From positions 72,335 through 136,334 of IMG/VR virus record IMGVR_UViG_3300045988_120820: DNA of 64,000 nucleotides; one strand, 5' to 3'. Position 1 is the stretch's first letter; each line of letters starts with the position of its first letter. The stretch is from a virus. This document shows positions 16,195-44,108 of this stretch, in pieces. The notes under the pieces were generated by a model. The model made no database searches and was not told the DNA's origin. It worked only from the letters and a program-made list of their open reading frames with translations. Position numbers and translations under genes: made by a program.

Positions 16195-19100
16195 CAATTA
16201 GGTTCGCTACTTCCTAATCAGTTCTCTTATGAACTTCTCTATGTTTCCATAGAAGTTGAGACTATATCTTTACCTTTATTAAAGGCACATACCACTTCCA
16301 CTCGCTTGAGTGTACGAGCATTTGCTCTAGTCGTTGAAGTTTACTTTTATTAATTGCTTAAATTATATTTTTTTGAAAATTCAATACTATTTTTTAATCT
16401 ATTAGGTTTATATTTCATATCAAATTTATAATAAAATTCTTTTGGTATATATTTTAAATAAGGTCTGACTACATCAAAAAATTTTCTAAAATTTGTAGCG
16501 TTAAAATACAATCTATAATATGTTCTATTCTTATATCCTTTGATTCCAGATTTATCAGTATGTATTTTTAAATCTATATCAAACCTTCTCTTAAACATGT
16601 CTTTAATTCTTACATTATCTTTATAACTGAAGCCTTGAGTATTTAGATACCCAAATCTTTTAGCATAATTATTTTTAAACGAAACATGCCAGTTTCCATC
16701 ATCTAAAAACCAAAGTAATAAACCAAAAGAATTTATATTGTTTAAAACTGTGTCTGATAAATATTTTTTACCATTTAATAATGTATTCTTTTTAAATTCT
16801 TCTTTATTAGGAATTTTTATTCTAACATTAGAATAAATATAAATACCAAATGTTGTATTTTTTTCATAATCATATTTAGAATGAGTGTCTATTCCTAAAG
16901 AACTAAACGTATATTCTAACCATTCAACATAAAATCTTTGTTTATTGGTATGGACACAACGAATATACTCTCCATTGATATCACCATCCCCTAACATCAA
17001 TCCATATAAACTATTTATTATTTCTTTCTCATTTTTAATCATGTGAATACTCACTCCTTTTTTTATTTTCGCAATTAACTTAAAGTCTTACCTGCTGATT
17101 GCCCAATCCTTAAACTTTTTAAAACCATCACGCTCATCATTACTGATTACGTTGTGGTATTAAGGCTCTAAGGGGTTTCCAGCAATTCAATATGTTTTCT
17201 AATAATAATTTCTTATTATAGGGGCTATTTATTAACCCAAGACAATATCTTCACCACAAATATCAATTATTTGTTGTTGTAACTCTTTAAATCTTTCTTG
17301 TTGTGCAGAAGTTTTATCTACTGTATCGTATAATTTTTTATATTCATCTCTAATATTGGATAAATTTGTTTTTGCTTTTGTTGAGCTAGTTACTTTATTA
17401 TTTAAATTGGTTATATTTTCTGCATTTTTTTCTAAAGCGTCATTAAGTTTATTAGCCTCGTCTGTAAAATGTTGAATAACTTTACCTATTCCCCATGATA
17501 CGAGCATACCTATACCCATATTTATAACGCCCATAGCTAAATTCATAGCTCCTAAAGCTACTTTTGTTCCTAATGCTTTAGCCTCTACACCTGCTAAAGC
17601 ACTTCTAACTGCTGTTAATCCAGAGGCAAATACTCCAGATGATTGACGAGCCTCTTTAAATGAAGTACCTATCCCTTTTATTACATTCCAAGATTTTCCA
17701 AGATAACTAGCTTGAAATCCTTCTTTTATTGTTGCAAAGAATCCTGGATTAGCAGTCCCAACCATCGTAGCACTAGATGCTTGTCGTGTTGCAGTGGCTT
17801 GTCCTTCTAGTGCAGTAGTTGTACTCAAAGCTTCGGCTTTTAATCTTCTTTCTTGATTAATTAATGCTTCAAATCCACCACTTTGATTAAATTTTATTGA
17901 TTCAAAAATACCAGAAATTGCCCCTGCTATTACGGGTAATCCTACACCCATGTCATCTATATACTTAACAAATTTATCTAACATGTCTAAAGCACTTATA
18001 CCAATGTCTAAAAATCCTTTTGCCGTATTTCCACTTACAGCTGTATTGACTATACTTCTCCATTTTTCTTGGAGTAATGTAAGTTTCCCTTGCACGGAGT
18101 CTATATATCTTGCATTCGTTATCTTCACATAAATTCGCTACATTTACGCAGTTCTCTTATGAACTTCCTATACTTTCATATAGAGTCGAGACTATTTCTT
18201 CACCTTCAGCATTATCTGTTAAGGGCAAAGTATTTCCACTATCAATAGCTTATAGTGTACGGTTTCACAACCTAGTCGTTGAAAGTTTAATCTAATTTAT
18301 TAATTATTTTTTAAATCTTTTAAATGATTTTTAATTATATTAGATTAATACTTGCATGAACACCCATTGTTTAAGATTACTTAGGATTTAACCATATAAT
18401 CATCCTTACGTTTTTTCTACTTTCGTACCTTCACGTTTATTGTTACCAATTACGTTGTGGTGTAAGGCTTTAGGGATTACCTGCTTTTAACTTTGTGTCC
18501 TACGCACATTTCTGTACGTACGGAGAATGTTGTTTCTCTTTCATTGAACTTCCGAAAGTGTCGCCATTTTCGTACTCTTTCATAAATTTTTCTGCTTGAC
18601 TCCAGTTACTCATTATTGCTGTGAAAACGTTCAGTTGGTTTTTCGGTTTGTTATCGTAAAGGCTTTTTATCCTCTACTTCTTATAGTTTCCTATAAGCCC
18701 AGCATACATTTTCACCCTCGTTTAACGTTAGGTATTGATGGTTGCAAACCCATCTCAAGTATTACTATATAATACTGTGGAGGAGGCTCGTGATAGGATT
18801 ATTGCTAACAATATCGCTCACCTATTATGCGTTACGGATGTTCTCTGTTAAGACACCCTCGGTATTACCATATCCGTTAAGGACTTAGGCTCTCTTACCA
18901 CCTTAATCTTTCGATTTAGTTGACCGATACACCCCTCTAATCTACATGATATTTCTACCATGAGTGGCATAATATTTAATTAATAGTTTATATTTTTTAA
19001 ATTTTCTTTCTAAATATATATTTGAATTTTTATAAATATAATCACAAAAAGTTAATACATCTTCTTTTTTATTAGTTACTAATCTAAAGATATCATTGGA

Positions 19101-22100
19101 TTTACAATTCGTTTTGTAAATTCTCCCCAATGGAATATTTGTATTCAAACATATACCTTCTAGGATATTTTTAGTTCCTAATATTTCTATACTTTGATGT
19201 TTTTCAGTACAAACAATACAACCATCTCCATCTAAATACCCTCTTATAAAATGAGGTGTTAATTCTTTAGGAACTTGTTCTTCTGTTGGAAAAGTTAATG
19301 TCAATGATTTTCTAGGAGTACATCCTAATTTAATTAAATCTTGCTTCATTTTTTTATTTTTAAAAGATACTCTACATCTAAAATCATCTACAATTAATTT
19401 TCCCTCAAACCCTATAAAATCTTTGAATTTTTGAAGATGCTCTTTATCTGATAATTGTAAAGAAAGTTCTATATCATTTCTTTTACCACTTGAAATACTT
19501 CCATCGGCATATAAAAATCCTAACCAATAAGCTTTTTCTTCAGAGTCTATTTTCTCAAATATATCATCGTTTATCTTCTTTTTATGTGGCATAATATTAA
19601 CTTTTATACCTTGGTTTTTTAAATAAGAAGAAAATCTACTTCTTGAAATTTTTAATTCTTTACTGATTCTAGCTGTAGATACTCCTTCTAAATACATTTT
19701 TAAACCCAAATTATATTTTTCTAAAGTTTCCTCCATCATAATATTCACCCCCTTTTTATTCTTTCCTTTATTAATTATTTTTAAACCTTTTAAACTATTA
19801 ATTTATATACCTGCAATCGCTTCAGCTACAGAAGATTTACTTTTTTTATCTAATTTATCCCACATTCCTGCTATATCGCCCATGATGTCATAGAAATCTC
19901 TAACTTGGCCATTTGAATCGTGCATATCAATTCCAGTTATTTTTTCTATGGCCATTGCTGTTTTATTCATTGAAATACTCGAATTGTTATTAACGTTAAG
20001 TTTTTTATCTTAACCTCTGGAAGTTTCCTTCATTTTCATCGATTGGTCATTTCCAATCCAGTCTGGCGTACATATTCCATCTCATATAAGACAGTCGGAG
20101 ACTCTTGGAGGAATTATATTCTATTTAAATAGTTTCATCCTCTACGCTCTACATTATTGAATAAGTTTTAATTTATTCAATTAACTCGGTATTAACTTAT
20201 CTTTATTAATTATTTTTAAGACTTAGTCTTTCTTACCATATGTATTACTACATATATGACCGAATTTCCCCGAACCGGCAATATTATTTACCGTCTTTAG
20301 CACTTGTTTTCCAACCTGCCATATTTTGCATGATTGTTTTTAAACCATTACCTAATTTACTTGCATTTTGTAATGGTTCTTGCCCTGCAATTATAATAGC
20401 AACCAACTCTTGCATACTAACACCTAATGTTTTCGCAACAGAAGATGAACGCATCATTGCTTCAGATACGTCTTTACCTGTAACAGCATAGTTGTTGTTT
20501 GCATAGTTGACCATATCCATCATTTGCATCATTTTGGTAGTTTCTTTGGTGTTACCTTTGACTTTCATTGTGACTTTATCTAATGAGTTTGCAACACCAC
20601 CATAAGATGCTAATGTTGATTTCAAGTATTTATCTGCATCTGCTTGGCTTGTATCTATAACGTTGGCAAACATAGATGCATTTTTAGCATATTGTAAAGC
20701 TTTACTAACATTATGGAAACCAGATTGTAATGCCTCGGCAGTGGAATCAATTATATCAATACTACTTCTGGCAACCTCTTGACCTGCCTCACTTGCTTTT
20801 TGAGTTAACCAATCTAATTGCTTGGCTGTTCCTGTAAAGGTGTCTGGTGCAACTTTTAATAATTTTTTAATAGCCGTATCTGTATCAATAATAGTACTAG
20901 GAATTGAAGATATACCTTGAGTGATAAGTCTACCAATCATATTTGGTATTGAATACATTGATAACATAGAGGCTAAATTACTGAAAAATCCAGACGTTTT
21001 CTTGGTTGCATTTCCTAATATATTCATTGCTTGAGTTGCACTTCTAGCACCATTAGCAACTCCGTTTATACCATTTCCGTTAATATTAGATAGACTACTA
21101 GAAAAAGTACTTACGTCTTTAGTCAGTGCTTTTAACTCTGCGTCTCTATCTTTTAAATTACTTATACTAGCTATAGTTTGTAGTCTTTGTTTAAATTCTT
21201 CTACCTTAGATGATGAAGCTCCTAATTCTTGACATCTTCTTGTTAAGTTTGTTAAATCTTGAGATACTTTATTAAAATCTGCATCAAATTTTACATTAGC
21301 TCTTTTAGTAGAAATTTCACTTTCAAATTGTTTATATTTATTTTCACATTGTGCTATTTTATCTTTTAAACCATCAAATTCAGCTTTAGCACCTTCTGTA
21401 TTAGGGTCTATATTTCGTAATTTTGATTGATATTGTTCTATTTGAGTTATTAGTTCTTGTATTCCAGATGTATTAGCAAATTTACTCGTTCCTAATTCAG
21501 CAAGTTTAGCTTTAAGAGATTCTAACTTAGCAACAGATGTATTTATCTTATCGGTGAATGTAATTGAACCATTCAATCCTTTTAATGACACCGACACATT
21601 ACTAATCTCTGCATTTAAATTATGTATTTGTTCATATGCCTTGTCAGATTTTAATATTTGACTTAAATCAGCACCTTTAACATTATTGATTTTATTTTGA
21701 AGTTCTTGAAGTTGTCCCATCTGTGAACTTGTTAAGTTTTTATTTTTGAACATATTATTAATTTGTTCAGAGGTATTATTAGCCTTTTGTTGAATTTTAT
21801 CAAATGAACTTATTAAATCTCTACTTATATCTATATTAGATTTATTTTTTAAGTTGTCCATTTTTTGTGCAGTAGATTGCATCTCACTGTTAATTTTTGA
21901 TAACTTAGATTCTAACTCGTTATAAGCTTGAGTATTTATAGTTTTAGACATTTGTTTTTGAAGTGATTCTGATTGTTTTTGTAAAACTTTATATTTAGCT
22001 ATAGTATTATCTAATTCTTTATTACCTGTAGAAGTCTTAGTAGAACCACTGCCAAATAAATTTTTTTGCACGTCTTTACTTAAAGAATTTATTTCTTTTA

Positions 22101-22320
22101 AAGTGTTTTGTATTTGTTTAAGATTGTTTAATTGGTCATCTTTAAGTTTAAAGGCATTGTTTAGTACTTTTTGAAGTTCTTCCATTTGAGCTTTCATTTT
22201 AGTAGTATCAAATTTTAGATTAACTTCTTTTTTCTCTAGCTTTTCCTTCAACTTAGCAACTTCTTGCTCTGCACCACTTCCATCTACAGAAGTTTTTAAC
22301 CTAATAGTTAAATCTGCCAT
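12232..22320 (-). CDS. tape measure protein, split gene (5 exons, ~2390 aa after removal of 4 intervening sequences)
   Basis: The TP901-type TMP core continues across ORF fragments and two hand-translated mini-exons. The downstream fragments lack an SD/ATG. The intervening segments are structured and GC-enriched. Confidence 0.85.
16195..17234 (-). mobile_element. group I-like intron D (family alpha) carrying a LAGLIDADG ORF
   Basis: An in-frame TAA follows GGT at the proposed 5' splice site. GCCC 9 nt inside can pair with exon GGGU (P1-like). GACTA...TAGTC (P7-like) pairing. GAAA-capped hairpin at 16232..16257. The 3' end ...CCTAATTG is aligned with intron C. Confidence 0.85.
16350..17042 (-). 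CDS. LAGLIDADG homing endonuclease (double motif), intron-encoded
   Basis: LYGLMLGDGDI and LLLWFLDDGNW motifs. ATG at 17042 follows AAGGAG. Confidence 0.9.
   Translation of the reverse strand: MIKNEKEIINSLYGLMLGDGDINGEYIRCVHTNKQRFYVEWLEYTFSSLGIDTHSKYDYEKNTTFGIYIYSNVRIKIPNKEEFKKNTLLNGKKYLSDTVLNNINSFGLLLWFLDDGNWHVSFKNNYAKRFGYLNTQGFSYKDNVRIKDMFKRRFDIDLKIHTDKSGIKGYKNRTYYRLYFNATNFRKFFDVVRPYLKYIPKEFYYKFDMKYKPNRLKNSIEFSKKYNLSN
17235..18125 (-). CDS. tape measure exon 4
   Basis: KITNARYIDSVQGKLTLLQEKW... matches the conserved ...Y.DS.QGK... segment of TP901-type TMPs. Followed by a Gly/Ala-rich hydrophobic stretch. Confidence 0.8.
18126..18533 (-). mobile_element. group I-like intron C (family alpha), ORF-less; 5' boundary uncertain (18534-18558)
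   Basis: Alignable along its length with the capsid-gene intron (35037..35415) and with the halves of intron D. GAAA hairpin at 18162..18188. Contains the junction motif at 18297..18307, where intron D carries its ORF. Confidence 0.75.
18534..18653 (-). CDS. tape measure mini-exon 3 (hand-translated)
   Basis: KNQLNVFTAIMSNWSQAEKFMKEYENGDTFGSS... continues ...AEAIAG from exon 2. This is the typical AIAGK.Q.NV..A.MSN TMP core. Confidence 0.7.
18654..19808 (-). mobile_element. group I-like intron B (family beta) carrying an HTH-LAGLIDADG ORF
   Basis: The 3' ~290 nt is alignable with the terL intron, including GATAAAAAGCC...GATAACAAAYCG at the 3' end. Hairpin with GAAA loop at 18690..18707. Confidence 0.8.
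18942..19739 (-). CDS. LAGLIDADG homing endonuclease with N-terminal HTH, intron-encoded
   Basis: WLGFLYADGSI and RGYLDGDGCI motifs. N-terminal TARISKELKISRSRFSSYLK is HTH-like. ATG at 19739 follows GGGGGTG. Confidence 0.9.
   Translation of the reverse strand: MMEETLEKYNLGLKMYLEGVSTARISKELKISRSRFSSYLKNQGIKVNIMPHKKKINDDIFEKIDSEEKAYWLGFLYADGSISSGKRNDIELSLQLSDKEHLQKFKDFIGFEGKLIVDDFRCRVSFKNKKMKQDLIKLGCTPRKSLTLTFPTEEQVPKELTPHFIRGYLDGDGCIVCTEKHQSIEILGTKNILEGICLNTNIPLGRIYKTNCKSNDIFRLVTNKKEDVLTFCDYIYKNSNIYLERKFKKYKLLIKYYATHGRNIM
19809..19975 (-). CDS. tape measure mini-exon 2 (hand-translated; 5' end approximate)
   Basis: ...NKTAMAIEKITGIDMHDSNGQVRDFYDIMGDIAGMWDKLDKKSKSSVAEAIAG matches the TP901 core region. 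Confidence 0.7.
19976..20289 (-). mobile_element. putative ORF-less intron A in the tape measure gene (family unclear)
   Basis: Separates two in-order TMP core pieces. GCCG 10 nt inside can pair with exon end GACGGU. Contains AGAGTCTC and the junction motif (20203..20213). Structure less clear than in the others. Confidence 0.55.
20290..22320 (-). CDS. tape measure exon 1
   Basis: ATG at 22320 with SD. MADLTIRLK... coiled coil, then ...LGNGLKTIMQNMAG... typical of the TMP core. Confidence 0.85.
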
Positions 22321-22341
22321 ATATTATCCTCACCTACCTTT

Positions 22342-22785
22342 CTATATAACATCCAATCCTTGCCCAATCAAATATCGTTTTAATTCTTCTGGTATTTGTT
22401 GAGCTATTTTAACTTGTGAATCTGGTATAATCGTTGTTGGAGGATAATAAGCAACCGTAGAATCACTTTTAAAACTCCAAACTTTACCTGCTTCCCAACC
22501 TATAATTGGAAAGAAATGTTCTCCCGTTTTTACACTTGTCCAATCCCCATTATCTTGAAATTCTACTACAGCACAATTCATATCAATACTTGATATCTGT
22601 GCTATTTCTCCCATTTGCCCTGTACGTTCATATACAGATGGTTCATGGTCGGCATATATTTGTTCATTTACTTCTTGTTGCATTATATCTACCATTTTAT
22701 TCGCCATAGGTGTCATAGCCGTAGAAACAACGGATTTAATATAATTGACTGCACTTTCAATATCATTTACAACCAAATTAATCAC
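22342..22785 (-). CDS. tail assembly chaperone, downstream frame (possible frameshift extension)
   Basis: Lies immediately upstream of the TMP. Overlaps the previous ORF by 8 nt at an A6G run. Only a GTG with no spaced SD. Confidence 0.4.
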   Translation of the reverse strand: MINLVVNDIESAVNYIKSVVSTAMTPMANKMVDIMQQEVNEQIYADHEPSVYERTGQMGEIAQISSIDMNCAVVEFQDNGDWTSVKTGEHFFPIIGWEAGKVWSFKSDSTVAYYPPTTIIPDSQVKIAQQIPEELKRYLIGQGLDVI

Positions 22786-23242
22786 CTTTTTTCATTTCTT
22801 TTATTTCCTCTTCTAATTTCTCACATTGTTTATTTAATATTTCTAATTTTTCGGCTTCTAATAATATTCTTTTACTTAAAGTTAACGAAGTCATATTTGC
22901 TAATAGGTTTTGTTTTTCTAACATGGCTTCTATAACAATTTCACTTACTATTTCATCTACATCTTGTGCAATAAACATTAATTCTTTTTTACCTTTATTT
23001 ATTGATTCTATTAAATCTTCGTCTAATTCTAAATCCGTAGCTAATTCAAATGCTTCTTTATATATAAGTTCCATTAATGCTTTTTCTTCTAATCCTTGTT
23101 CTAGTCCTTTAGATATTTTTTCTTTTAATTCGTTTCTATTCTTACCAAATATATTATAAACTAAAACAGTTTCTATTTCGTCATTTACTTCCACGTCATA
23201 TGAACTTCTAATCATATCTAATGTTAAATCACTTAATTTCAT
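22778..23242 (-). CDS. tail assembly chaperone (gpG-like, positional)
   Basis: Acidic 154-aa protein two genes upstream of the TMP. SD and junction motif lie upstream (23260..23270). Confidence 0.45.
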   Translation of the reverse strand: MKLSDLTLDMIRSSYDVEVNDEIETVLVYNIFGKNRNELKEKISKGLEQGLEEKALMELIYKEAFELATDLELDEDLIESINKGKKELMFIAQDVDEIVSEIVIEAMLEKQNLLANMTSLTLSKRILLEAEKLEILNKQCEKLEEEIKEMKKGD

Positions 23243-23375
23243 TTCTTAATCTCCCTTCTTTATTAATTATTTTAATACATCTTCTCCTATTTCACACATT
23301 ATACAAATAGTAATTAGAGTTATAACACAACTGGCTTTGTGTACGATTATATTATATGATTATTTTAAATTTATA

Positions 23376-23401
23376 TTCACAATATTTTTAAATTGCGAAC
23401 T
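23376..23401. repeat. imperfect inverted repeat TTCACAAT-N8-ATTGCGAA within a 21-nt repeat (copy 1)
   Basis: AATATTTTTAAATTGCGAACT at 23381..23401 is identical to 27290..27310. Confidence 0.8.
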
Positions 23402-23419
23402 TAATGGATATTAAACGAA

Positions 23420-23548
23420 CTATTCAACTATTAATTCTTCACATCCGCTTTCTATTAATATTTGTTTAACTTGCTCCTTTAACTTTGTAGGTACTTTTTT
23501 ATAAGTTAATTTACCTTGTATTATTCTATAAGCTAAAAATTCAGCCAT
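23420..23548 (-). CDS. small XkdX/CD1375-like protein (42 aa, below track cutoff)
   Basis: Hand-translated: MAEFLAYRIIQGKLTYKKVPTKLKEQVKQILIESGCEELIVE. ATG lies 1 nt after the upstream stop. This is the typical position after fibre genes. Confidence 0.55.
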   Translation of the reverse strand: MAEFLAYRIIQGKLTYKKVPTKLKEQVKQILIESGCEELIVE

Positions 23549-23549
23549 A

Positions 23550-23735
23550 TTATTCACCTCCTTCTAAAGTTAACATAATCAAATCTTGTATTGCCTGTGC
23601 TTGTCTTTCTTGTTCTTCTTGCATTAAATCAAGTTGAGATTTAGGCTGTTCAATTGTATTTTCCTGAAGTTCTTTAAAAAAAATCAATTCTTCTGTTGTC
23701 ATTTCACGTATTATACCATTTTCATATATTTTCAT
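23550..23735 (-). CDS. small acidic protein (XkdW-position), unknown function
   Basis: The ATG at 23735 (MKIYENG...) follows GGTGG. The track's TTG start is less likely. Confidence 0.5.
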   Translation of the reverse strand: MKIYENGIIREMTTEELIFFKELQENTIEQPKSQLDLMQEEQERQAQAIQDLIMLTLEGGE

Positions 23736-23743
23736 TTTACCAC

Positions 23744-24391: not shown

Positions 24392-24395
24392 TTTA

Positions 24396-32787: not shown

Positions 32788-32788
32788 T

Positions 32789-34187: not shown

Positions 34188-34197
34188 TTAATCACCT

Positions 34198-34818: not shown

Positions 34819-34835
34819 TTTGTTTATTCTCCCTT

Positions 34836-34871
34836 CTAAATTAAATAAAGCACTACCAACAAAGTAGTGCT
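34836..34871 (-). terminator. rho-independent terminator after the major capsid gene
   Basis: AGCACTAC/GTAGTGCT stem followed by TTATTTAATTT on the - strand. Confidence 0.7.
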
Positions 34872-34895
34872 ATGTTAATTATTAATTATTTTTGA

Positions 34896-36306: not shown

Positions 36307-36345
36307 TATTTATAACCTCCTAATTTTATTAATTGTTTTTTGATT

Positions 36346-36855
36346 TTAATAGAATAATATTTTAACCATATCTCTACCTTGTACTGTAAGTACTTCTACA
36401 ACTTCACCAACTATTCTTTTAGCTCCTGTTTCACCAACACCTGGAGCAGTGTATTTTTTAAGATTATGTGAACTAGCTTTAACAGTTAATTGGTCTCCTA
36501 CGGCAACAGTTTCGTCTATAAGTGTTTTTTCTATAGTGACAACCATTCCTTTATGTAAAAAATAACCTCTCACAGGGTTTCCTGCTTCTGTATCTGGATA
36601 ATCTCCATGATTCCACATATCTCTTTTATCATATCTATGACCGTCAGATGCTACCATAGCTAATATTTTATTAGCGTCATCTTCTAAATCAGTTACTTCA
36701 TAACATTCACCTTCTGCCCCTATATCAGATACTTTAGCTAAAGTATTATCAGCAAGTCCTTTTACTAATACTACTTCTCCATTTTTTAATGCTTCATCTT
36801 CGCATATTATTGATTTGGCAAAATTATCTTCTACATAATTTAATATTTGTATCAT
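36346..36855 (-). CDS. hypothetical head-module protein
   Basis: 169-aa ORF between the scaffold and capsid genes. Confidence 0.5.
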   Translation of the reverse strand: MIQILNYVEDNFAKSIICEDEALKNGEVVLVKGLADNTLAKVSDIGAEGECYEVTDLEDDANKILAMVASDGHRYDKRDMWNHGDYPDTEAGNPVRGYFLHKGMVVTIEKTLIDETVAVGDQLTVKASSHNLKKYTAPGVGETGAKRIVGEVVEVLTVQGRDMVKILFY

Positions 36856-36880
36856 TATTTATACCTCCTAATTTTGTTAA

Positions 36881-38134
36881 TTATTTTTTGTTTTTCCATT
36901 TTTCCAATCTACCACCGTAAGGTGCATTAGAATCTGTAAATTCTTCATTTGGATTTATTATACCTACTGAATTAGTTTTTCCATTTTTAGGTTTACTAAA
37001 TGATTGAGTTTCTCTAACTTGATTAGCCCACATTATAGCTAATTTTCCTTCATATTCTTCTTTAGATATTTCATGTTTTAATGCTTTATCTTGAAGTGCT
37101 TTAGCATCTTCTGTATCTAAAGAATATTTTTCAGTTATAGAATCAATTTCTAATTTAAATTGTTTAGCATCGCTATCAGCTTTAAATTGTTTTAATTCTT
37201 CATAATCACTCATGCTTTCTAATTGAGCTTTTAATTCTTCGTATTCAATTTTTAATTGGTCAAAAGCAGTTTTTAATTGTGTATATTTTTCATCTTCTGT
37301 GTTATCTTCAACAGAATGATTTTCCTTATCTTTATCTTCTTTCTTTTCTTCAGAATCATCTTGAGAACATTCTTCTTTTTGTTCTTCTTCATCCGGAGTG
37401 AAATCTTCTTGTTGAGTTCCCTCTTGATTTTCAAACTCTTCAGTTTCTTGAACTTCTTGATTTTCAAACTCTTTATCCATTGTTTCACCTCCCTTTTCTA
37501 AAGAATAAATTTTCTTCATTTCTTCTAATTCAGTTTTAACATCTCCACAAGTGAACAGAGATAAGTTAGCTCCTGCCATAGCAGGTTGAACACCTACACC
37601 AAGCATTGTTATACCTAAAAAAGTAAAATCAGTTATTTCAAAGAATCCATCTTCTCTAAAGCTGAAATCGTCAACATTTATTTCCATAGATACTTCTAAT
37701 GCACCATCGTTAGAATCTAATACATCAAGTAATTGTTGGGAATACTCCCTCCATATTAATGCTGTGCAAGATAAATATTTCTTACCGTCTTTTTCTACTT
37801 GTGTAATTATAGTATCTTCTGGAACGAATCCATAAGCTTTTTCAAGATATATTAACTGATAATCGTAACCATCTGGAGTATCAGTAGCCTCCACTTTAGT
37901 ATCATGTCCACCTAAAACCCATTCGTCATCTTCATTTTTATAAACATGAGCTAATAAGGGTATACCTCTAATACTTTTTTCAGCACATTTCATTTGTGTT
38001 TCTGAATCAAACCAAGAACCATTTAAATTATCTTGGTCGTGACATACAAGTATTCTACATCCTACAAATCTACTATCACTTGAAGATTTAAAAACTTCCA
38101 TTTCACTATATAATTTTAAATGTTTATTTCCCAA
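36881..38134 (-). CDS. putative prohead protease-scaffold fusion protein
   Basis: The N-terminal ~200 aa has a prohead-protease-like pattern (...IRGIPLLAHVY...LEVSMEI...). An acidic linker and a coiled-coil C-terminus are typical of scaffolds. Confidence 0.4.
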   Translation of the reverse strand: MGNKHLKLYSEMEVFKSSSDSRFVGCRILVCHDQDNLNGSWFDSETQMKCAEKSIRGIPLLAHVYKNEDDEWVLGGHDTKVEATDTPDGYDYQLIYLEKAYGFVPEDTIITQVEKDGKKYLSCTALIWREYSQQLLDVLDSNDGALEVSMEINVDDFSFREDGFFEITDFTFLGITMLGVGVQPAMAGANLSLFTCGDVKTELEEMKKIYSLEKGGETMDKEFENQEVQETEEFENQEGTQQEDFTPDEEEQKEECSQDDSEEKKEDKDKENHSVEDNTEDEKYTQLKTAFDQLKIEYEELKAQLESMSDYEELKQFKADSDAKQFKLEIDSITEKYSLDTEDAKALQDKALKHEISKEEYEGKLAIMWANQVRETQSFSKPKNGKTNSVGIINPNEEFTDSNAPYGGRLEKWKNKK

Positions 38135-38158
38135 TTCTAATTCACACCCCCTTTCTTC

Positions 38159-38344
38159 TTAGAAAAATAATTTATTAGAAAACATGAATTTTCTTTTATC
38201 TTCATTACTGAATTTAACTTTAGTACTATTAAGAAAAATATAAACAGTTTTATTGTCTATAATACCTTCAGATAAAAACACTAATCCTCGATTTAAAAGT
38301 TCATGTTTATCTTCTTCATTAAATGCATATATGAATTTATTCAT
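38159..38344 (-). CDS. small protein, DUF5659-like pattern
   Basis: 61 aa. Its start overlaps the S8 stop (ATGAATAA). Loosely similar to 40332..40508 and to the N-terminus of 46530..46811. Confidence 0.5.
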   Translation of the reverse strand: MNKFIYAFNEEDKHELLNRGLVFLSEGIIDNKTVYIFLNSTKVKFSNEDKRKFMFSNKLFF

Positions 38345-39236
38345 AATGTATCACTCCATTACCTTGGAATCTAAAATCTAAATTTAAATCCCTACAATGT
38401 TTTATTAATTCAGCATATAACTCCATTTCACTAGGATTTCTACCTCTTTTAAATTTAAATTTTTGTTTTAATAAAGCTAAAAATCCCGCAACATGAGGTG
38501 ATGCTTGACTTGTACCACTAGCAGTGGCAAATTTATTATTTAAATAACAACCCCTTATATTGTAACCTGGAGCTACCAAATCTATTTCATCATTTGAATT
38601 AGAGAATTTTGTTATTTTATCATCTATACTTATTGCTCCTATTGCTATTGAATTATTTAAATATGCTGGGTAAGATATTTCATTAGTATTAAACTTACCA
38701 TCTCCACTGTTACCACTACTAACACAACATAAGATATCATTATCTATTGCTAATTCAATTAATTTATCTAATTCTTTATCATAAACATTTGTACCTAAAC
38801 TCATATTAATTATATCTACTTTTTCTTCTATCATATATTTAATACCATTAGTTATACATTCCATATCACCATTACCTTTTTTATTAAGTACTTTTCCAAC
38901 TACTAATTTAGCATTAGGTGCTACACCATAAATGCCTAAATGTTCGCCGTCAGGTTTTGCACATATTATAGAAGAAACATGAGTTCCATGCCCATTTAAA
39001 TCCTCAAAATTATCAGAATTACCTTCGGAAGTGAAATTTTTCCCTTTTAAAATATTATCTTTTAAACAATAATGAGAAGTACTTATTCCTGTGTCTAATA
39101 CACCTATCACTATATCTTCTCCTTTATATCCTTCATTCCATAAATTTTCAGTTCCAATATGTTTAATATTATCGGGAATTAAATCTGGAAGATTGTCGCT
39201 TATAGATTCTATTTTATAGTCTGCAATTTTAAACAT
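38337..39236 (-). CDS. subtilisin-like serine protease (peptidase S8)
   Basis: Catalytic triad motifs VIGVLDTGI (D), HGTHVSS (H), SGTSQASPHVAG (S). Confidence 0.85.
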   Translation of the reverse strand: MFKIADYKIESISDNLPDLIPDNIKHIGTENLWNEGYKGEDIVIGVLDTGISTSHYCLKDNILKGKNFTSEGNSDNFEDLNGHGTHVSSIICAKPDGEHLGIYGVAPNAKLVVGKVLNKKGNGDMECITNGIKYMIEEKVDIINMSLGTNVYDKELDKLIELAIDNDILCCVSSGNSGDGKFNTNEISYPAYLNNSIAIGAISIDDKITKFSNSNDEIDLVAPGYNIRGCYLNNKFATASGTSQASPHVAGFLALLKQKFKFKRGRNPSEMELYAELIKHCRDLNLDFRFQGNGVIHYE

Positions 39237-40249
39237 TATATCACCTCCTTATTTATTTTATTTAATTCTTTAATTAATATCTCTTCAATATTATCTATAT
39301 CATAATACCAAATCTCTAATAATCTAATATTATTTTCTTTAGCATAATTTCTTTTTCTTTTATCGTGTTCAAGTTGTCTTTCAAAATCTTCCTTAGTTAT
39401 CCAAGTTTTTTGCCATGATTCATGTTGCTCACCTTGACATTCTATAAGTAAGTTGTAATTTGGTAGATAAAAATCATAAGATAAATTGCCGTTTCCTAAT
39501 CCTAATAATCCTTCATATTTTATTTGTGTCTTATAGTCTATATTATATTTTTCTAATATATTCTTAGTTTTTATTTCTAATTGAGAAGAATTACATTCTC
39601 TACAAAACACACCTCTATCAACTTGATTTAAATTTGCTAAATTCCTTTCAAATTCACCACCACATTCTTGACATATAAATTTATACTTGTTACCACTTCT
39701 AGGGGTTACTTCAAATGGTGATTTTTTATTATTAGGAGACCAATATTTAGCCTTATCTGGATATAAACTTCCAAAACTATCTTTTGGATGAATTTTTCCT
39801 ACTTTTTTAGAACAATAAGGACATCTTTTTCCTTCTAAAAAATGAGCAGGAGTTGTAATATAATTGCCATGATAATATTTTTCATTACATATTAAAATAA
39901 TCTTTTCGTGACTTCTACGAGTTATACAATAAGGATTTATACCTCTTTTTTCGTTTTCCTCAAAATCCCAATAATCTTCTAATTTTTCATTTAATTCTTC
40001 TTCAATATAATATGCGAAACTATTATCGTAAGTATGACAACAACTAGAGCATTTACTTCCACGATTAAAATGATTAAATATAACGTCATATTCTCTTTTA
40101 CAATAAGGACATTTAACTCTAATATATACATTATTATTTTTCTTATTTTTATCATCTATAGTCACTTCATTTTTATGATAACTTCCTATATAGACATAAC
40201 CATCTCTACGATTTTCAACTTTTTCTTTGTGTTTTTCATTAAAATACAT
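39236..40249 (-). CDS. free-standing homing-endonuclease-like protein (zinc ribbons plus Vsr/PD-(D/E)XK-like C-terminus), paralog of 6166..7395
   Basis: Near-identical N-terminus (MYFNEKHKEKVENRRDGYVYIGSYH) and C-terminus (NLSYDFYLPNYNLLIECQGEQHE...LEIWYYDIDNIEEIL). Its stop overlaps the S8 start. Confidence 0.6.
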   Translation of the reverse strand: MYFNEKHKEKVENRRDGYVYIGSYHKNEVTIDDKNKKNNNVYIRVKCPYCKREYDVIFNHFNRGSKCSSCCHTYDNSFAYYIEEELNEKLEDYWDFEENEKRGINPYCITRRSHEKIILICNEKYYHGNYITTPAHFLEGKRCPYCSKKVGKIHPKDSFGSLYPDKAKYWSPNNKKSPFEVTPRSGNKYKFICQECGGEFERNLANLNQVDRGVFCRECNSSQLEIKTKNILEKYNIDYKTQIKYEGLLGLGNGNLSYDFYLPNYNLLIECQGEQHESWQKTWITKEDFERQLEHDKRKRNYAKENNIRLLEIWYYDIDNIEEILIKELNKINKEVI

Positions 40250-40290
40250 ATATATTCCTCCTCAATATTTTATTAATTACTATATTATTG

Positions 40291-40323
40291 TATTAACATT
40301 TCTATATTATAAATCACCTATGA
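40291..40323 (-). promoter_or_regulatory. class-2 promoter-like element, copy E
   Basis: - strand: CATAGGTGATTT-N11-ATGTTAATAC (TGnTAATAC is an extended -10). Lies 40 nt upstream of the 39236..40249 start. Confidence 0.55.
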
Positions 40324-40331
40324 TTTATTAA

Positions 40332-40508
40332 TTATTTTTTATTCCATTTATTTAATGCTAAGTCTAAATCTCTATTTCTCATAAATACCCAAAATGTTTT
40401 ATGATTATTAGGATTTAAACCACAAACATAATATTTAAGTCCTTCATTTATTAAAAATTTCTTTTGTTTAGCGTCATAACATATATATAATGGATTTTTA
40501 TAATTCAT
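40332..40508 (-). CDS. small protein (58 aa, below track cutoff), DUF5659-like pattern
   Basis: Hand-translated: MNYKNPLYICYDAKQKKFLINEGLKYYVCGLNPNNHKTFWVFMRNRDLDLALNKWNKK. GGAGGAAG SD. The stop lies inside the junction motif. Confidence 0.55.
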   Translation of the reverse strand: MNYKNPLYICYDAKQKKFLINEGLKYYVCGLNPNNHKTFWVFMRNRDLDLALNKWNKK

Positions 40509-40525
40509 ATTTCTTCCTCCTTATT

Positions 40526-42004
40526 TTAATAATCTCCAGCATTATCCGCTTCTGGCGCTCTATTCGGGTCACCAGACTCCTCTGATGCACTCGGTCTACC
40601 ACCTGTATTTTCAATATCTGCTCCCGACATTGTATGCGAATTAGCTAACGGACTCATAAGAGTTCCAAAATCTAATATACTTTCTATTTGAAGTATATTT
40701 AACGCTTCTAATGGTGAATATCCACATATTCCTAAATGTTCTAGCTTGCTTGTCCACGTTGTTAATCTATTGCAACTAGATTGAATTTTTTCCTCTTTAT
40801 TAAATTTGGTTGTATCACAGAAATATAATTGAAAATTTTTTAATGATGAATTTTTACTAAAAACATAATTTAACCATATTTTGATTCTATCTAATAAATT
40901 CAATGGTACTAAACTATCTACAATTGTCCCATAGATTACAGATTGAGTGCTACTTCTATTATCTCCGTTAAATAAATTGCTATCTATACCTGCTGTATCA
41001 TATACATTATTAGTTAAATTGTTTATTTCTTCATAATCAGAAACTTTATTGGTTTGTAATGAAACGGAATCTATTTTATAAGGAGAACTCACCACCCCTA
41101 TTCCGTCTCTAACATTTCTAACTAATGCTCTATGATAAAACATTGCCGTTTCTGGCTCTATGCTTAATTCACCATCATCATCTGTAGGTAGCAATTGATG
41201 AATTAATTTAAAGTTATTAGCTTCAATATTTTCCATACTAGCGTCAGCTAAATCTTTTATTCTACTTAAATCTAAAAGCAACCCAGAATAATATGGAATA
41301 CCTTTACTTTCTATTACTTCTGGAAGAAAAGCTATTGCATTTTCAAGTGGTAATTTGTAATAGTTATCTACGAAATTTTCATCATTCTTTAAATTACCTG
41401 CTTTATAATCGGCATATAAATTTTGAATATCTGTTGGGTAATATCCTAATTGTTTAGTATTAATACCACTAAGTTTTATACTATAACCCAACATAAAAGA
41501 TTCAGTATAAGTGACTTTACATAAATCTTCGGGTAAAGAAACAAATGTAATACTATCGCTTGTTTCCTGTTTATATAAATATATTTCTCCTTTTCTAAAT
41601 TCACTTTCTAAAACCCAAGGACAAAAAGTTTTTAGATTATATTTTTCTAATTCTAAACACGCTTTTCTATAAGATTTAAAAAAGTTATCCTGTCCTTTAG
41701 TTATAAATTTACTAGCATCTAATGGAACTAAATAATGGTCGTAAGTTAACAAATTCGATTTATAATTTATTATTTCTTTTAAATTACCATTAATTACTCT
41801 CATAAGTTCGGCTTGCTGTTGTAGTGTAGAAACATTAGAATAAGGATTTTCTAAAGCACTAGCTATAGTGTCAGTATCCACCTTGCTTCTTTTCCTATTA
41901 CTAGATATTTTGTCTATGTTACTTATATCAACCATCGAAGCTTGTTGTGCAAAACTTAAATTTTTCTTTTTATTATCTTTCTCTTCGCTCAAACATCTCA
42001 CCAC
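40526..42004 (-). CDS. portal protein
   Basis: 492 aa immediately downstream of terL. Acidic C-terminal tail. Size and position are typical. Confidence 0.7.
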   Translation of the reverse strand: MVRCLSEEKDNKKKNLSFAQQASMVDISNIDKISSNRKRSKVDTDTIASALENPYSNVSTLQQQAELMRVINGNLKEIINYKSNLLTYDHYLVPLDASKFITKGQDNFFKSYRKACLELEKYNLKTFCPWVLESEFRKGEIYLYKQETSDSITFVSLPEDLCKVTYTESFMLGYSIKLSGINTKQLGYYPTDIQNLYADYKAGNLKNDENFVDNYYKLPLENAIAFLPEVIESKGIPYYSGLLLDLSRIKDLADASMENIEANNFKLIHQLLPTDDDGELSIEPETAMFYHRALVRNVRDGIGVVSSPYKIDSVSLQTNKVSDYEEINNLTNNVYDTAGIDSNLFNGDNRSSTQSVIYGTIVDSLVPLNLLDRIKIWLNYVFSKNSSLKNFQLYFCDTTKFNKEEKIQSSCNRLTTWTSKLEHLGICGYSPLEALNILQIESILDFGTLMSPLANSHTMSGADIENTGGRPSASEESGDPNRAPEADNAGDY

Positions 42005-42007
42005 CTT

Positions 42008-44108
42008 TTAATTAGCTAAGAAAATATGTCTTTTTCTCTTGTTTCTATTTTTCTTTCTTATATCTTTTTCTATTAATTCAGCTAAATAATTACCATAAGT
42101 AATAGAAGAATATCTATCTTTACGATTTCTTCCTTTTTCTTTAAGAACTATATCACCATTTCCCATAGTTTCATAATCTAAGTTTATTGATTCAAATATA
42201 AAATTAGATGTTTGAATAAATGGTGCTATTTTATTAGCATGGTATTCAGCGTCTTGATGATATTTTAAGTCTTTACTAAAGTCTCCTCTTTTTTCATTTT
42301 CTTCTATTAATAATCTTATTTTTTTACTACCAAAAGCATTTTTAAGATATACTGCACAATCATTATTTATTTTTTGATTCCCTTTAATTACATATATACA
42401 ATTTATACCATTTTTTAAAGGTTGAAAATCTTTTGATTGTGTACTCATATCATAAATGCCAAAAGGTTCGTAATGTTCATCAATATTTTCGTCATAAGAT
42501 GATTTTTCCATCTCTTGTATTACTGCTATACCTAAACCACCACCATCTATAATGATTTTATCAGCTTTAAATTCTGTATATAATCTCTTAATTCTAGTGG
42601 CTTGTTTTTCAAATTTCATACCATTATGTGATTCCATATAAACAACTTCTCTAATAATATTATTTCCACTAGGAAGTAATCTCCATAAAGTAAAAATAGA
42701 GTTATCATTTTTATTTGATTTGTTAGCTTTTGCTGTGGCTACATCGACCGAAATTATTCTTATTTCGTCTTTCTTTTTAGGCATTTGTCTTAATTTCTTT
42801 TTCTTCTCTTCCGGATTTCTATAGTCGTCATCTGTTAATGGATAATAACAATTCTTTAAAACTCTAGCATTTAACATATCAGATGTATTAAAGAAGCAAT
42901 CACCACTTTGTCCATGCCATATAGCACCATATTCCATATTAAATACAAATTCGCCCATGTCCTCTTTATCTTCTTCAATCTTATCTTTTAATACAAGTTT
43001 ATGGTCTAAAGAAGCTAAATAAGGAATAGCACATGCAAATGATTTTCCACCCTCAAACATTCTATTTAGTATAGTCATAAACTTTTCATAACTCCAATGA
43101 ACTTTCATCCATGCAGAACTTAGATATATCTCCATATTAGCTTCTAATGGATAATCTGCATATTCGGGTTTTTCTAAAAATGGAGGTTTTCTTGGATTTG
43201 TTAAGAATTGTTTTAAAACTGAATTTATTATATCTAATTTGATAAGCCTAAATTCGTCTGCAACCAATACGTTACCTCTCAACGATTTGTTATCCTATAG
43301 GCTTTTTATCCCATAGTTCTTACATTTTACCATCATGTAAGTCCAGCATACATTTTCACCTTCAGCATTATCTGTTAAGGGGAGGAGGCTCGTGAGAAAA
43401 TTATTGCTCTCATATTATCGCTCATTTCTTATGCGTTACAAACAGTATTAGATATTACTGCTCTCGGTATTGTCCCTTGTGAATTGGAGGATTCTCTTTT
43501 AATTTTATACAAATTCAAAATGAAGATTTCCTGTGCTTTTTCTTCTCTTAATATAAAATTATTATTCATTTTATGAACCGATACACCCCTCTAATTATCT
43601 AAAAAATTTCTCTTTTAGACGGCTATACTTTTTAACCTCTCGCTCCATCATTAGAAGCTATAGCTGTTATTACAGAACCATTTTTAAAAATACATTTAAC
43701 ATTATCCTTATTATTTTGAACTTTTTTAATTTCTTTTGCTAACGCAGGGTAATCCCTGCGTAAATCTTCAATCTTTTCGGTTATAATTAATCCTGCTTGG
43801 TCTTTATTACCAGATGCAACTACTATCTTTGAACCCGGATATAATATTGCTCTACAACATACAAATATCGCGGTTATAAAACTTTTTCCCAAACCCCTCG
43901 ATGCAATCCAGCACACACTTGTACATATATTCATCATGTAAAGCAATACTTGTTGAAACCAATACAAATTAATTCCTAACCAATCCATACAAAATCTATG
44001 TGGATTTTTTCTAAAATATTCAGTCCATATTTTTACACCATCTAATAAGTTTTCATATGAATCCTTTTTTAAGTTTTTTCTTTGTTTACATTTTAATTTA
44101 TTTTCCAT
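42008..44108 (-). CDS. terL: terminase large subunit, split gene (exon 1 43635..44108, exon 2 42008..43282)
   Basis: Exon 1 has Walker A SRGLGKSF and ends ...SNDGARG*. Exon 2 starts (L)RGNVLVADEF (Walker B region) with no SD and continues into the nuclease half. The likely start is the ATG at 44108 (MENKLKC). Confidence 0.8.
43283..43634 (-). mobile_element. group I-like intron (family beta), ORF-less, in terL
   Basis: An in-frame TAA follows GGT. GCCGUCU 11 nt inside can pair with exon AGAGGU. Long alignable blocks with TMP intron B. Confidence 0.75.

What the first reader, a model, noticed from the sequence alone, without database searches (positions are those of the whole stretch)
16195..43634. 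At least two intron families with compensatory stem changes, plus a 27-nt hairpin shared between families
Family alpha comprises TMP introns C and D and the capsid intron.
- They share ...AACGACTAG... and ...ATAGTCTC... (P7-like pairing GACTA/TAGTC).
- This is followed by a GAAA-capped hairpin whose stem differs but stays paired. On the - strand: D has CTTCTCTATG-GAAA-CATAGAGAAG (16232..16257), C has CTATAT-GAAA-GTATAG (18162..18188), and capsid has CTCATGT-GAAA-GCATGAG (about 35074..35097).

Family beta comprises TMP intron B and the terL intron.
- They share GGTGAAAATGTATGCTGGRCTTA.
- A hairpin follows: CTTATAG-GAAA-CTATAAG in B (18690..18707) versus CTTACAT...ATGTAAG in terL (43329..43351).
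- They then share GATAAAAAGCC...GATAACAAAYCG.

Such covariation argues for selection on RNA structure. In addition, an identical 27-mer, TTCACCTTCAGCATTATCTGTTAAGGG (+ strand), occurs in alpha intron C (18199..18225) and in the beta terL intron (43365..43391). This suggests exchange of a peripheral hairpin between unrelated introns in one genome. The ORF-less introns carry the junction motif where their relatives carry the endonuclease ORF, consistent with ORF loss.
Basis: seen in the sequence. Interest (0 to 1): 0.75.

Follow-up and report, generated by a model that had tools for sequence, protein, structure and literature searches.

The report
Six phage group I introns
Six self-splicing group I introns of two already known phage types interrupt the tail tape-measure, a head-region structural gene and the large terminase gene of a phage, and the 27-base stretch two of them share is a widely conserved core hairpin, not evidence of a swap inside this genome.

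Summary
The sequence features are real; a few coordinates are about 10 nt off. All six inserts are precise introns. Close relatives in IMG/VR carry uninterrupted alleles at every site, and removing the inserts restores a 2381-aa tape measure and collinear terminase and structural proteins.

- **Alpha (C, D, capsid-gene intron):** classical phage IA2 architecture.
- **Beta (B, terL):** a second widespread phage class that I read as IA1-like.
- **Covariation:** 92.6% and 97.0% of cells pair in structure-neutral alignments of 34 and 40 diverse homologues, against 28-46% when partners are slid.
- **The 27-mer:** it is P8 plus the start of J8/7, a core element. Its 22-nt hairpin is exact in 57 loci and 22 intron contexts of both classes.
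- **Independent assortment:** in relatives the two introns that carry the hairpin occur one without the other, so exchange within this genome is not needed.
- **ORF loss or gain:** directly visible for B, D, capsid and terL.
- **The "junction motif":** a genome-wide intergenic signal.

Side finding: introns C and capsid have G, not U, before the 5' splice site. Verdict: a new member of a known kind, of moderate interest.

The parts
19980..20289 (-). TMP intron A, 310 nt, ORF-less, beta class. Exon ends GGU|. Intron ends UUCG|.
   Evidence: Intron-less alleles give the bounds. Beta 3'-domain model scores 76.8 bits, E 1.2e-14, and A was not in the seed.
18644..19808 (-). TMP intron B, 1165 nt, beta class. 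The endonuclease cassette sits in the P1-P2 region.
   Evidence: Bounds. Model score 105.0 bits, not in the seed. ORF-less versions of about 340-362 nt occur in relatives.
18942..19748 (-). Intron B ORF, 268 aa: LAGLIDADG homing endonuclease with an N-terminal HTH.
   Evidence: Pfam LAGLIDADG_3, E 7.4e-8.
18117..18535 (-). TMP intron C, 419 nt, ORF-less, alpha (IA2) class. Exon ends GAG|, so G is at -1. Intron ends AACG|.
   Evidence: Bounds. RF00028 gives 31.5 bits. Alpha model gives 98.2 bits.
16186..17234 (-). TMP intron D, 1049 nt, alpha (IA2) class. Exon ends GGGU|. Intron ends AUUG|. The ORF lies in the P6 loop region.
   Evidence: Bounds. Alpha model gives 124.9 bits. ORF-less versions of about 350-360 nt occur in relatives.
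16350..17054 (-). Intron D ORF, 234 aa: LAGLIDADG homing endonuclease.
   Evidence: Pfam LAGLIDADG_2, E 2.5e-18.
35026..35434 (-). Intron in the structural ('capsid') gene, 409 nt, ORF-less, alpha (IA2) class. Exon ends GAAGG|, so G is at -1. Intron ends UAGG|.
   Evidence: RF00028 gives 48.7 bits, E 3.5e-11, over the full model. Bounds. Alpha model gives 129.2 bits.
43283..43634 (-). terL intron, 352 nt, ORF-less, beta class. Exon ends GGU|. Intron ends AUCG|.
   Evidence: Bounds. Beta model gives 106.7 bits. No Rfam match at all.
18199..18225 (-). 27-mer, copy 1: P8 hairpin CCUUAACAGAUAAUGCUGAAGG, one preceding C and UGAA of J8/7, in intron C.
43355..43381 (-). 27-mer, copy 2: the same P8 plus J8/7 start, in the terL intron.
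18868..18889 (-). Canonical 11-nt tetraloop-receptor motif (CCUAAG...UAUGG) in the P5/P6 region of intron B. B also has a GAAA loop on P9.
   Evidence: Read directly in the sequence. The role is inferred.
18297..18310 (-). Copy of the genome-wide motif AAAATAATTAATAA inside intron C, about 17 nt before J6/7-P7.
   Evidence: Relatives' intron endonuclease ORFs end at the same position.
19768..19781 (-). Copy of the motif directly upstream of the ribosome-binding site of the intron B endonuclease.
20203..20216 (-). Copy of the motif inside ORF-less intron A, in the P5 peripheral region.

Best explanation
The window carries six self-splicing group I introns in late structural and packaging genes of a roughly 135-kb phage with low G+C. 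Four are in the tape-measure gene, one in a head-region structural gene, and one in the large terminase gene.

**The two classes**
- C, D and the capsid-gene intron are classical phage IA2 ribozymes. They have P7 GACUA/UAGUC, two hairpins P7.1 and P7.2, and P9, P9.1 and P9.2.
- A, B and terL belong to a second widespread phage class.
- That class has P7 GCRUA/UAYGC, one extended P7.1 hairpin followed by CAMGAG, and a P9.1 hairpin with the invariant loop GAUAAAAAGC.
- Its tail reads GAUAACA...G. I read the class as IA1-like.

- Each intron folds in the transcript.
- It pairs its guide sequence with both exon ends (P1 and P10).
- It is removed by the two guanosine-dependent transesterifications, which restores the reading frame.
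- B and D encode LAGLIDADG endonucleases that would spread the introns by homing.
- The other four introns are ORF-less derivatives or relatives.

**The shared 27-mer**
- It is the P8 helix plus the start of J8/7.
- It is one discrete P8 variant whose every base is conserved and which recurs in many intron lineages.
- The most likely reason is that it makes a sequence-specific tertiary contact. My candidate partner is an AGAAAU loop on P2.
For: **Precise inserts**
- Intron-less alleles exist at all six sites in relatives that are 87-98% identical.
- One contig lacks all of the introns.
- The spliced TMP is 2381 aa with no stop.
- PF10145, Terminase_6N and phrog_4088 each match in one stretch across the junctions.

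**Splice-site features**
- All six introns end in G.
- The guide sequences are complementary to the ligated exons: CAUUCUC to GAG|AAUG in C, CGCCU to AGG|CG in capsid, and AUAGCCC to GGGU|UAU in D.

**Fold**
- RF00028 matches the capsid intron over the full model at 48.7 bits.
- Alpha 3' domain: 92.6% of cells paired against 35-39% when slid, and 29 of 37 pairs show double changes.
- Beta 3' domain: 97.0% against 28-46%, 22 of 28 pairs with double changes, and P7 itself switches A-U to G-C.
- Beta P3/P3': longest helix averages 5.26 for true partners against 3.58 +/- 0.15 for permuted partners.

**Links to known introns**
- The alpha domain hits 588 phage records, including the T4 nrdB gene and the Staphylococcus lysK gene; I take these to be their introns from my own knowledge.
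- The beta domain hits the split terminase region of a B. cereus 03BB108 plasmid, which matches the published term-IVS2 (PMC2504315).

**Endonucleases and P8**
- LAGLIDADG domains are found in both ORFs.
- The P8 22-mer is exact in 57 loci and 22 contexts.
- An AGAAAU-loop hairpin lies upstream in 11 of 19 module clusters against 31 of 132 controls, p = 0.004.
Against: - No intron reaches Rfam's gathering score, and A and terL have no Rfam match at all.
- C and the capsid intron lack the U.G wobble at the 5' splice site, which the literature calls completely conserved (PMC11835236).
- Splicing was not observed.
- The IA1 label for beta rests on my reading of P7.1/P7.1a. It was not compared with a reference IA1 model.
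- The 5' halves of the beta introns were only partly tested (P3; P4-P6 read by eye).
- The proposed L2-P8 contact is a statistical association with redundant sampling. D has an AGAAAU loop without the module.
- The 'capsid' function of the host gene is not established, because phrog_4088 has no assigned function.
Confidence: 0.9

Rival explanations
1. The identical 27-mer results from recent recombination or gene conversion between intron C and the terL intron within this phage genome.
For: - The exact 22-mer is rare in family samples collected without regard to P8: 0 of 113 beta and 0 of 119 GACUA-P7 sequences. Two copies in one genome is therefore not trivial.
- P8 is otherwise very variable within both families.
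Against: - The same 22-mer is exact in 22 distinct intron contexts in 54 viral contigs, a C. difficile chromosome and an archaeal MAG.
- Relatives carry C with the module but have no terL intron (contig ...125645). Others carry the terL intron with the module but have no C (contig ...134731).
- The identity ends exactly at the P8 and J8/7 boundaries.
- The module stays exact while its flanks diverge (L050 against the window).
Confidence: 0.07
2. The P8 hairpin is a module that spreads horizontally between intron lineages by recombination across phages. It is not retained or selected independently in each lineage.
For: - Its distribution is patchy in both classes.
- It also turns up at other structural positions: P7.1a in L299, L331 and L334, and upstream of P7 in L006.
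- Mosaic introns exist that combine the alpha P7 with beta periphery.
Against: - Graded variants with compensatory changes exist, such as UCUU...AAGA, CCCU...GAGGG and CAA/UUG in place of CAG/CUG. These look like ordinary divergence under structural selection.
- No recombination breakpoints were tested.
Confidence: 0.3
3. Some of the inserts, especially C and the capsid-gene intron with G at -1, are degenerate or need a protein or other helper. The host genes would then be expressed inefficiently or not at all from this genome.
For: - The canonical U.G pair is absent at the 5' splice site of both.
- Both are ORF-less.
Against: - Both interrupt essential structural genes.
- Both are conserved in several relatives, with compensatory changes in P2 and P8.
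- Their guide sequences match the ligated exons perfectly.
- Their cores score as high as D's.
Confidence: 0.1

Closest known systems
Subgroup IA2 phage group I introns (T4 nrdB/td, Staphylococcus Twort and kayvirus lysK introns, B. cereus prophage TMP-IVS1/2, the intron part of C. difficile IStron CdISt1)
   Same: - Alpha introns C, D and capsid have P7 GACUA/UAGUC, two hairpins P7.1 and P7.2, and an extended P9 with P9.1 and P9.2 followed by a GAAxA tail.
- They show DNA-level similarity at the T4 nrdB and lysK genes.
- D's 5' junction CUUGGGU|UAAU resembles that of T4 td, from my own recollection.
- Two alpha-type copies in a C. difficile chromosome, which I read as the CdISt1 IStron, carry the identical P8 22-mer.
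   Different: - They sit in a tape-measure gene and a head-region structural gene of an unrelated phage of about 135 kb.
- Two of the three have G rather than U at -1.
Group I introns in tape-measure, terminase and tail-tube genes of B. cereus-group prophages (Tourasse and Kolsto 2008, PMC2504315)
   Same: - Several IA1 and IA2 introns occur in one TMP gene, plus a terminase intron.
- Intron-plus and intron-minus alleles exist.
- Related introns are adapted to different sites through P1.
- ORF-less and endonuclease-bearing forms both occur.
- The beta domain matches the 03BB108 terminase intron region.
   Different: - There are four introns in one TMP gene here, against up to three sites there.
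- The host phage lineage is different.
- LAGLIDADG endonucleases are present in two of the introns.
GNRA tetraloop-receptor contacts in group I introns (for example L2-P8 and L9-P5 in the Azoarcus and Twort ribozymes; from my own knowledge)
   Same: - The P8 module has a CCUUAAC/GAAGG internal asymmetry that recalls the 11-nt receptor CCUAAG/UAUGG.
- It co-occurs with AGAAAU-loop hairpins at the P2 position.
- Intron B carries a canonical 11-nt receptor and a GAAA L9.
   Different: - The module is not the canonical receptor sequence.
- Its terminal loop is conserved as well.
- The contact is inferred, not shown.

Membership tests
Group I intron | Precise intervening sequence whose removal restores a collinear host gene | tested here: met
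   - Intron-less alleles exist at all six sites.
- The spliced TMP is 2381 aa without a stop.
- Single-stretch profile matches cross the junctions.
Group I intron | 3'-terminal guanosine (omega G) | tested here: met
   - All six introns end in G.
- That G is conserved while neighbouring bases vary in relatives.
Group I intron | U at the end of the 5' exon, forming a U.G wobble with the guide sequence in P1 | tested here: not met
   - Met for A, B, D and terL.
- Not met for C (GAG|) or for the capsid intron (GAAGG|), where G(-1) pairs with C of the guide sequence.
- No alternative junction gives both U(-1) and a 3'-terminal G.
Group I intron | Conserved core P3-P8 and P7 supported by comparative analysis | tested here: met
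   - Alpha: 92.6% of cells paired against 35-39% when slid.
- Beta: 97.0% against 28-46%.
- Beta P3/P3' beats permuted partners.
- P4-P6 was read by eye only for beta and taken from the Rfam alignment for alpha.
Group I intron | Match to Rfam RF00028 at its gathering score | tested here: not met
   - Capsid 48.7 bits and C 31.5 bits, against a threshold of 50.
- A and terL give no match even at E <= 10.
- I read this as a limit of the model for IA introns.
Group I intron | Guanosine-dependent self-splicing | not testable with these tools
   Needs in vitro transcription and splicing assays, or RNA from infected cells.
Subgroup IA2 (alpha: C, D, capsid) | Two hairpins P7.1 and P7.2 between P7 and P3', and an extended P9 with P9.1 and P9.2 (definition as in PMC4227781) | tested here: met
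   - All four helices are supported by compensatory changes.
- Model scores are 98-129 bits.
- There is DNA similarity at the T4 nrdB and lysK genes.
Subgroup IA1 (beta: A, B, terL) | P7.1/P7.1a arrangement instead of P7.1/P7.2 (from my own knowledge of the Michel-Westhof scheme) | tested here: inconclusive
   - A single extended hairpin after P7 is supported: 5 pairs, all covarying.
- No reference IA1 model or sequence was available for comparison.
- Published relatives are described only as IA1 or IA2 (PMC2504315).
LAGLIDADG homing endonuclease (ORFs in B and D) | LAGLIDADG domain(s) encoded inside an intron; site-specific cleavage of the intron-less allele | tested here: met
   - Domains: PF14528, E 7.4e-8, and PF03161, E 2.5e-18.
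- Cleavage was not tested.
- Empty, ORF-less and ORF-bearing alleles at the same sites are consistent with homing and ORF loss.
11-nt GAAA tetraloop receptor (for the P8 module) | CCUAAG / UAUGG motif | tested here: not met
   - The module reads CCUUAAC.../...GAAGG, which is similar but not the canonical motif.
- The canonical motif is present elsewhere, in intron B at 18868..18889.

The most novel reading that the evidence does not exclude
- The invariant 22-nt P8 hairpin, together with an AGAAAU loop on P2, is a self-contained tertiary-contact cassette.
- It has been passed repeatedly between otherwise different phage group I intron lineages, and even into other helices.
- Separately, two of these introns are natural group I ribozymes that splice accurately with a G-C pair instead of the 'universal' U.G wobble at the 5' splice site.
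Probability: 0.2. Interest if true: 0.6.

Novelty: new member of a known kind. Interest (0 to 1): 0.4.

Why it matters
**For annotation**
- Four introns split one tape-measure gene into five ORFs, and two more split a structural gene and terL.
- Standard tools miss them. Rfam reports nothing at its threshold, and the beta class is invisible to RF00028 although it occurs in more than 120 viral contigs.
- Such genes will be mis-called as fragments in metagenomic phage genomes.

**For intron biology**
- The set of close relatives gives a natural population series: every site empty, ORF-less or endonuclease-bearing.
- That series suits the study of homing, ORF decay and site switching.

**Two points that could matter more if confirmed**
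- A fully conserved P8 module is shared across intron classes.

Tried and rejected
- **Rfam scans.** The whole window at gathering score gave nothing. A 5.5-kb scan at E <= 10 also gave nothing. Only short stretches revealed the alpha introns.
- **3' splice site after GAAG in alpha introns.** I rejected my first guess because relatives have an in-frame stop in the following 6 nt. The intron-less alleles also join 6 nt further on.
- **U(-1) junction for the capsid intron.** This is the 1-nt shift. It would make the last intron base C or U in relatives, lengthen the tail by one relative to C and D, and break the match between the guide sequence and the ligated exons.
- **U(-1) junction for C at ACAU|.** The GUG it would pair with belongs to P2, which covaries in L086 and L087.
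- **Motif AAAATAATTAATAA as a simple promoter.** In several copies it lies only 1-15 nt from the ribosome-binding site. In others it sits just upstream of sigma-70-like promoters or just before terminator-like hairpins. I leave it as an intergenic signal of unknown role.
- **Named motif for the P8 internal loop.** I considered the UAA/GAN motif and the 11-nt receptor, and neither fits cleanly.
- **Close relative among deposited phages.** The megablast search found only short intron-core matches.
Full report
**1. Are the inserts introns?**

All genes of interest lie on the - strand. I searched IMG/VR with the terminase, tape-measure and structural proteins. This returned 16-18 loci per query from phage contigs of about 125-140 kb, and most are 87-98% identical to the window.

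At every one of the six sites some relatives carry an uninterrupted gene. Aligning them gives exact bounds:

| Intron | Coordinates | Length | 5' and 3' junctions |
|---|---|---|---|
| A | 19980..20289 | 310 nt | GGU\| ... UUCG\| |
| B | 18644..19808 | 1165 nt | GGU\| ... ACCG\| |
| C | 18117..18535 | 419 nt | GAG\| ... AACG\| |
| D | 16186..17234 | 1049 nt | GGGU\| ... AUUG\| |
| capsid gene | 35026..35434 | 409 nt | GAAGG\| ... UAGG\| |
| terL | 43283..43634 | 352 nt | GGU\| ... AUCG\| |

- Removing the four TMP inserts gives one 2381-aa reading frame with no stop.
- PF10145 matches in a single stretch across the A and B junctions. Terminase_6N does the same across the terL junction.
- The spliced structural protein matches phrog_4088 end to end. 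That family has no assigned function, so "capsid" remains a label and is not a finding.

**2. What kind of introns?**

*Rfam.*
- Rfam finds nothing at its gathering score.
- When only the insert is given, RF00028 matches the capsid-gene intron over the whole model at 48.7 bits, E 3.5e-11 (threshold 50).
- It matches C at 31.5 bits.
- A and terL give no match at all.

I therefore tested the structures directly on homologues gathered from IMG/VR with short core patterns. Both scans stopped at the limit of 120 contigs.

*Alpha.* I used a MAFFT alignment that was not fitted to any structure. It held 34 diverse 3' domains, including C, D and capsid.
- The helices P7, P7.1 (GNRA loop), P7.2, P8, P9, P9.1 and P9.2 pair in 92.6% of cells. 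When the 3' partners are slid, 35-39% pair.
- 29 of 37 pairs show changes on both sides.
- The covariation score is 0.688, against at most 0.148 for the slid controls.
- Two hairpins in domain 7 plus P9.1 and P9.2 are the published hallmark of IA2 (PMC4227781).
- The alpha 3' domain has DNA-level matches in 588 phage records, including the T4 nrdB gene and the Staphylococcus lysK gene.

*Beta.* I aligned 40 diverse 3' domains, including terL.
- The helices are P7 (GCRUA/UAYGC), a 5-bp P7.1, P8, P9 and a P9.1 hairpin that closes the invariant loop GAUAAAAAGC.
- They pair in 97.0% of cells, against 28-46% when slid.
- 22 of 28 pairs show double changes, and the score is 0.642 against at most 0.18.
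- P7 itself switches A-U to G-C in 14 of 40 sequences.
- The long-range P3/P3' pairing is also supported. The longest helix averages 5.26 for true partners and 3.58 +/- 0.15 for permuted partners.

*Models run on the window.*
- The beta model scores terL at 106.7 bits, B at 105.0 and A at 76.8. B and A were not in the seed.
- The alpha introns reach only 19-21 bits with that model, and nothing else in the window scores.
- The alpha model finds only C, D and capsid.
- The window therefore holds three alpha and three beta-class introns. The unassigned intron A is a divergent beta member with a branched P9.

*Naming and relatedness.*
- I read beta as IA1-like because of its single extended P7.1 hairpin. 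I could not compare it with a reference IA1 model.
- Its 3' domain matches the split terminase region of B. cereus 03BB108 plasmid pBFI_4. That is the published term-IVS2.
- The two classes are not unrelated. In the collection, 32 sequences combine the alpha P7 with beta-type periphery.

**3. Splice-site pairing**

The guide sequences are complementary to the ligated exons.
- A: GCCG pairs with CGGU, and AAUAUU pairs with the 3' exon AGUAUU.
- D: AUAGCCC pairs with GGGU|UAU, with the usual U.G.
- C: CAUUCUC is the exact reverse complement of GAG|AAUG.
- Capsid: CGCCU is the reverse complement of AGG|CG.

In C and capsid the base before the 5' splice site is therefore G paired with C, not U paired with G.

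I could not find an alternative.
- C has no U nearby. The only U-ending option needs a GUG that belongs to P2, and P2 covaries between the window and L086/L087.
- For capsid, the 1-nt shift that would give U(-1) makes the last intron base C or U in relatives. It also lengthens the tail relative to C and D.
- A sister intron at a second capsid site starts with the same UAACG after a normal U.

The literature treats this U.G pair as completely conserved (PMC11835236, PMC4227781). This is worth an experiment, but it was not the finding I was given.

**4. The 27-mer**

It is exact at 18199..18225 and 43355..43381. In both introns it is one C, the P8 hairpin CCUUAACAGAUAAUGCUGAAGG, and UGAA at the start of J8/7. 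This is core, not periphery.

*Distribution.*
- The 22-nt hairpin is exact in 54 viral contigs.
- In 185,579 species genomes it is exact only in one Woesearchaeota MAG contig and twice in a C. difficile chromosome. The C. difficile copies sit in an alpha-type intron that looks like the IStron CdISt1.
- These 57 loci fall into 22 distinct contexts: 24 loci are beta, 22 alpha, 8 other introns with a GACUA-type P7, and 3 others, among them a pair next to a tRNA-like 3' end.
- Near-copies also sit in the P7.1a position of other introns.
- The exact form is nevertheless rare in family samples taken without regard to P8: 0 of 113 and 0 of 119.
- Graded variants show compensatory changes. It is thus a discrete, strongly constrained P8 variant.

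*Why exchange inside this genome is unnecessary.*
- Contig ...125645 has intron C with the module and an uninterrupted terL.
- Contig ...134731 has the terL intron with the module and no intron C.
- The identity ends exactly at the element's edges.
- Whether the module spread between lineages by recombination on a longer timescale remains open.

*A functional lead.*
- A hairpin with an AGAAAU loop, placed like P2, lies within 450 nt upstream in 11 of 19 module-bearing clusters. Among controls it is 31 of 132 (odds ratio 4.5, p = 0.004).
- Such a hairpin is present in both window introns that carry the module. This fits an L2-P8 tertiary contact.
- It is not proof. D has such a loop with an ordinary P8.

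**5. ORFs, ORF loss and the "junction motif"**

- The ORFs in B and D are LAGLIDADG endonucleases.
- Insert lengths per contig show three states among close relatives:

| Site | Empty | ORF-less | Endonuclease-bearing |
|---|---|---|---|
| B | 0 | about 340-362 | about 1165-1172 |
| D | 0 | about 350-431 | 1049-1285 |
| capsid site | 0 | about 400-409 | about 1335-1373 |
| terL site 1 | 0 | 317-352 | about 1254 |

- A second terL site is empty in the window and occupied in five relatives.
- One contig (...131721) has none of the introns.
- ORF gain or loss is therefore observed directly.

The motif AAAATAATTAATAA occurs 23 times in the window, where 0.1 is expected. It always lies on the coding strand of the local genes.
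- It sits between genes, in one of three settings: just before ribosome-binding sites, just upstream of sigma-70-like promoters in the + strand block, or just before terminator-like hairpins.
- In B it heads the endonuclease cassette. ORF-less B alleles lack both the motif and the ORF.
- In relatives' capsid introns it lies just before the endonuclease gene or overlaps its stop, about 17 nt ahead of J6/7. Intron C has it at that same position.
- This fits ORF loss in C. The ORF-less capsid and terL introns of the window do not carry the motif.

**6. Comparison with what is known**

- Multiple IA1 and IA2 introns in prophage tape-measure genes have been described, along with introns in terminase and tail-tube genes, intron-plus and intron-minus alleles and adaptation of P1 to new sites (PMC2504315).
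- Heterogeneity of phage IA introns is also documented (PMC11878797).
- The finding is therefore a rich new example of a known phenomenon.
- What is less ordinary is the density (six introns in 27 kb, four in one gene), the blindness of RF00028 to the beta class, the invariant P8 module, and the two G(-1) junctions.

Noticed in passing
window 18535/18536 and 35434/35435 (- strand): Introns C and capsid have G, not U, as the last base of the 5' exon. It pairs with C of the guide sequence, so there is no U.G wobble at the cleavage site. The guide sequences match the ligated exons exactly, and no alternative junction keeps a 3'-terminal G.
   Followed up: partly
window, 23 copies: - strand 6163..50072, + strand 57514..63974: A 14-16 nt motif, AAAA(A)TAATTAATAA(A), lies between genes and always on the local coding strand (0.1 copies expected). 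It sits just before ribosome-binding sites, just upstream of TTGACA...TATAAT promoters in the + strand block, or just before terminator-like hairpins. Its role is unknown.
   Followed up: partly
window about 43115..43127 (terL); relatives L064, L067 (not resolved), L068, L069, L072: A second terL intron site is empty in the window. In relatives it is occupied by a beta-class, A-like intron, either about 409 nt long or about 1400 nt with an ORF. The exon sequence next to the site differs over about 11 nt between occupied and empty alleles, as expected for co-conversion.
   Followed up: partly
relatives L101-L105, capsid gene about 60 nt upstream of the window's site: A close relative of the window's capsid intron sits at a different site in the same gene, with a changed guide sequence and a normal U(-1). 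This is an example of site switching.
   Followed up: partly
L005 and L036 (IMG/VR contigs): The same P8 22-mer occurs in an intron-like sequence that is followed by what looks like the 3' half of a tRNA gene (GGTTCGATCCC...).
   Followed up: no
L340 and L341 (C. difficile OX246690.1, about 1.72 and 3.83 Mb): Two near-identical alpha-type introns carry the exact P8 22-mer. Their 3' tail (GTGAACGACAA...) looks like the junction to the IS part of the IStron CdISt1.
   Followed up: no
window 18868..18889 against 43319..43341: Intron B pairs a GAAA loop on P9 with a canonical 11-nt receptor (CCUAAG...UAUGG) in its P5/P6 region. Its relative, the terL intron, has neither: its L9 reads GAUGGUAAA. 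This suggests the loop and the receptor change together.
   Followed up: no
Rfam searches of window 19950..20320 and 43230..43690: The beta class occurs in more than 120 viral contigs and in plasmid-borne prophages of Bacillus and Clostridium. RF00028 does not detect it, even at E <= 10.
   Followed up: yes
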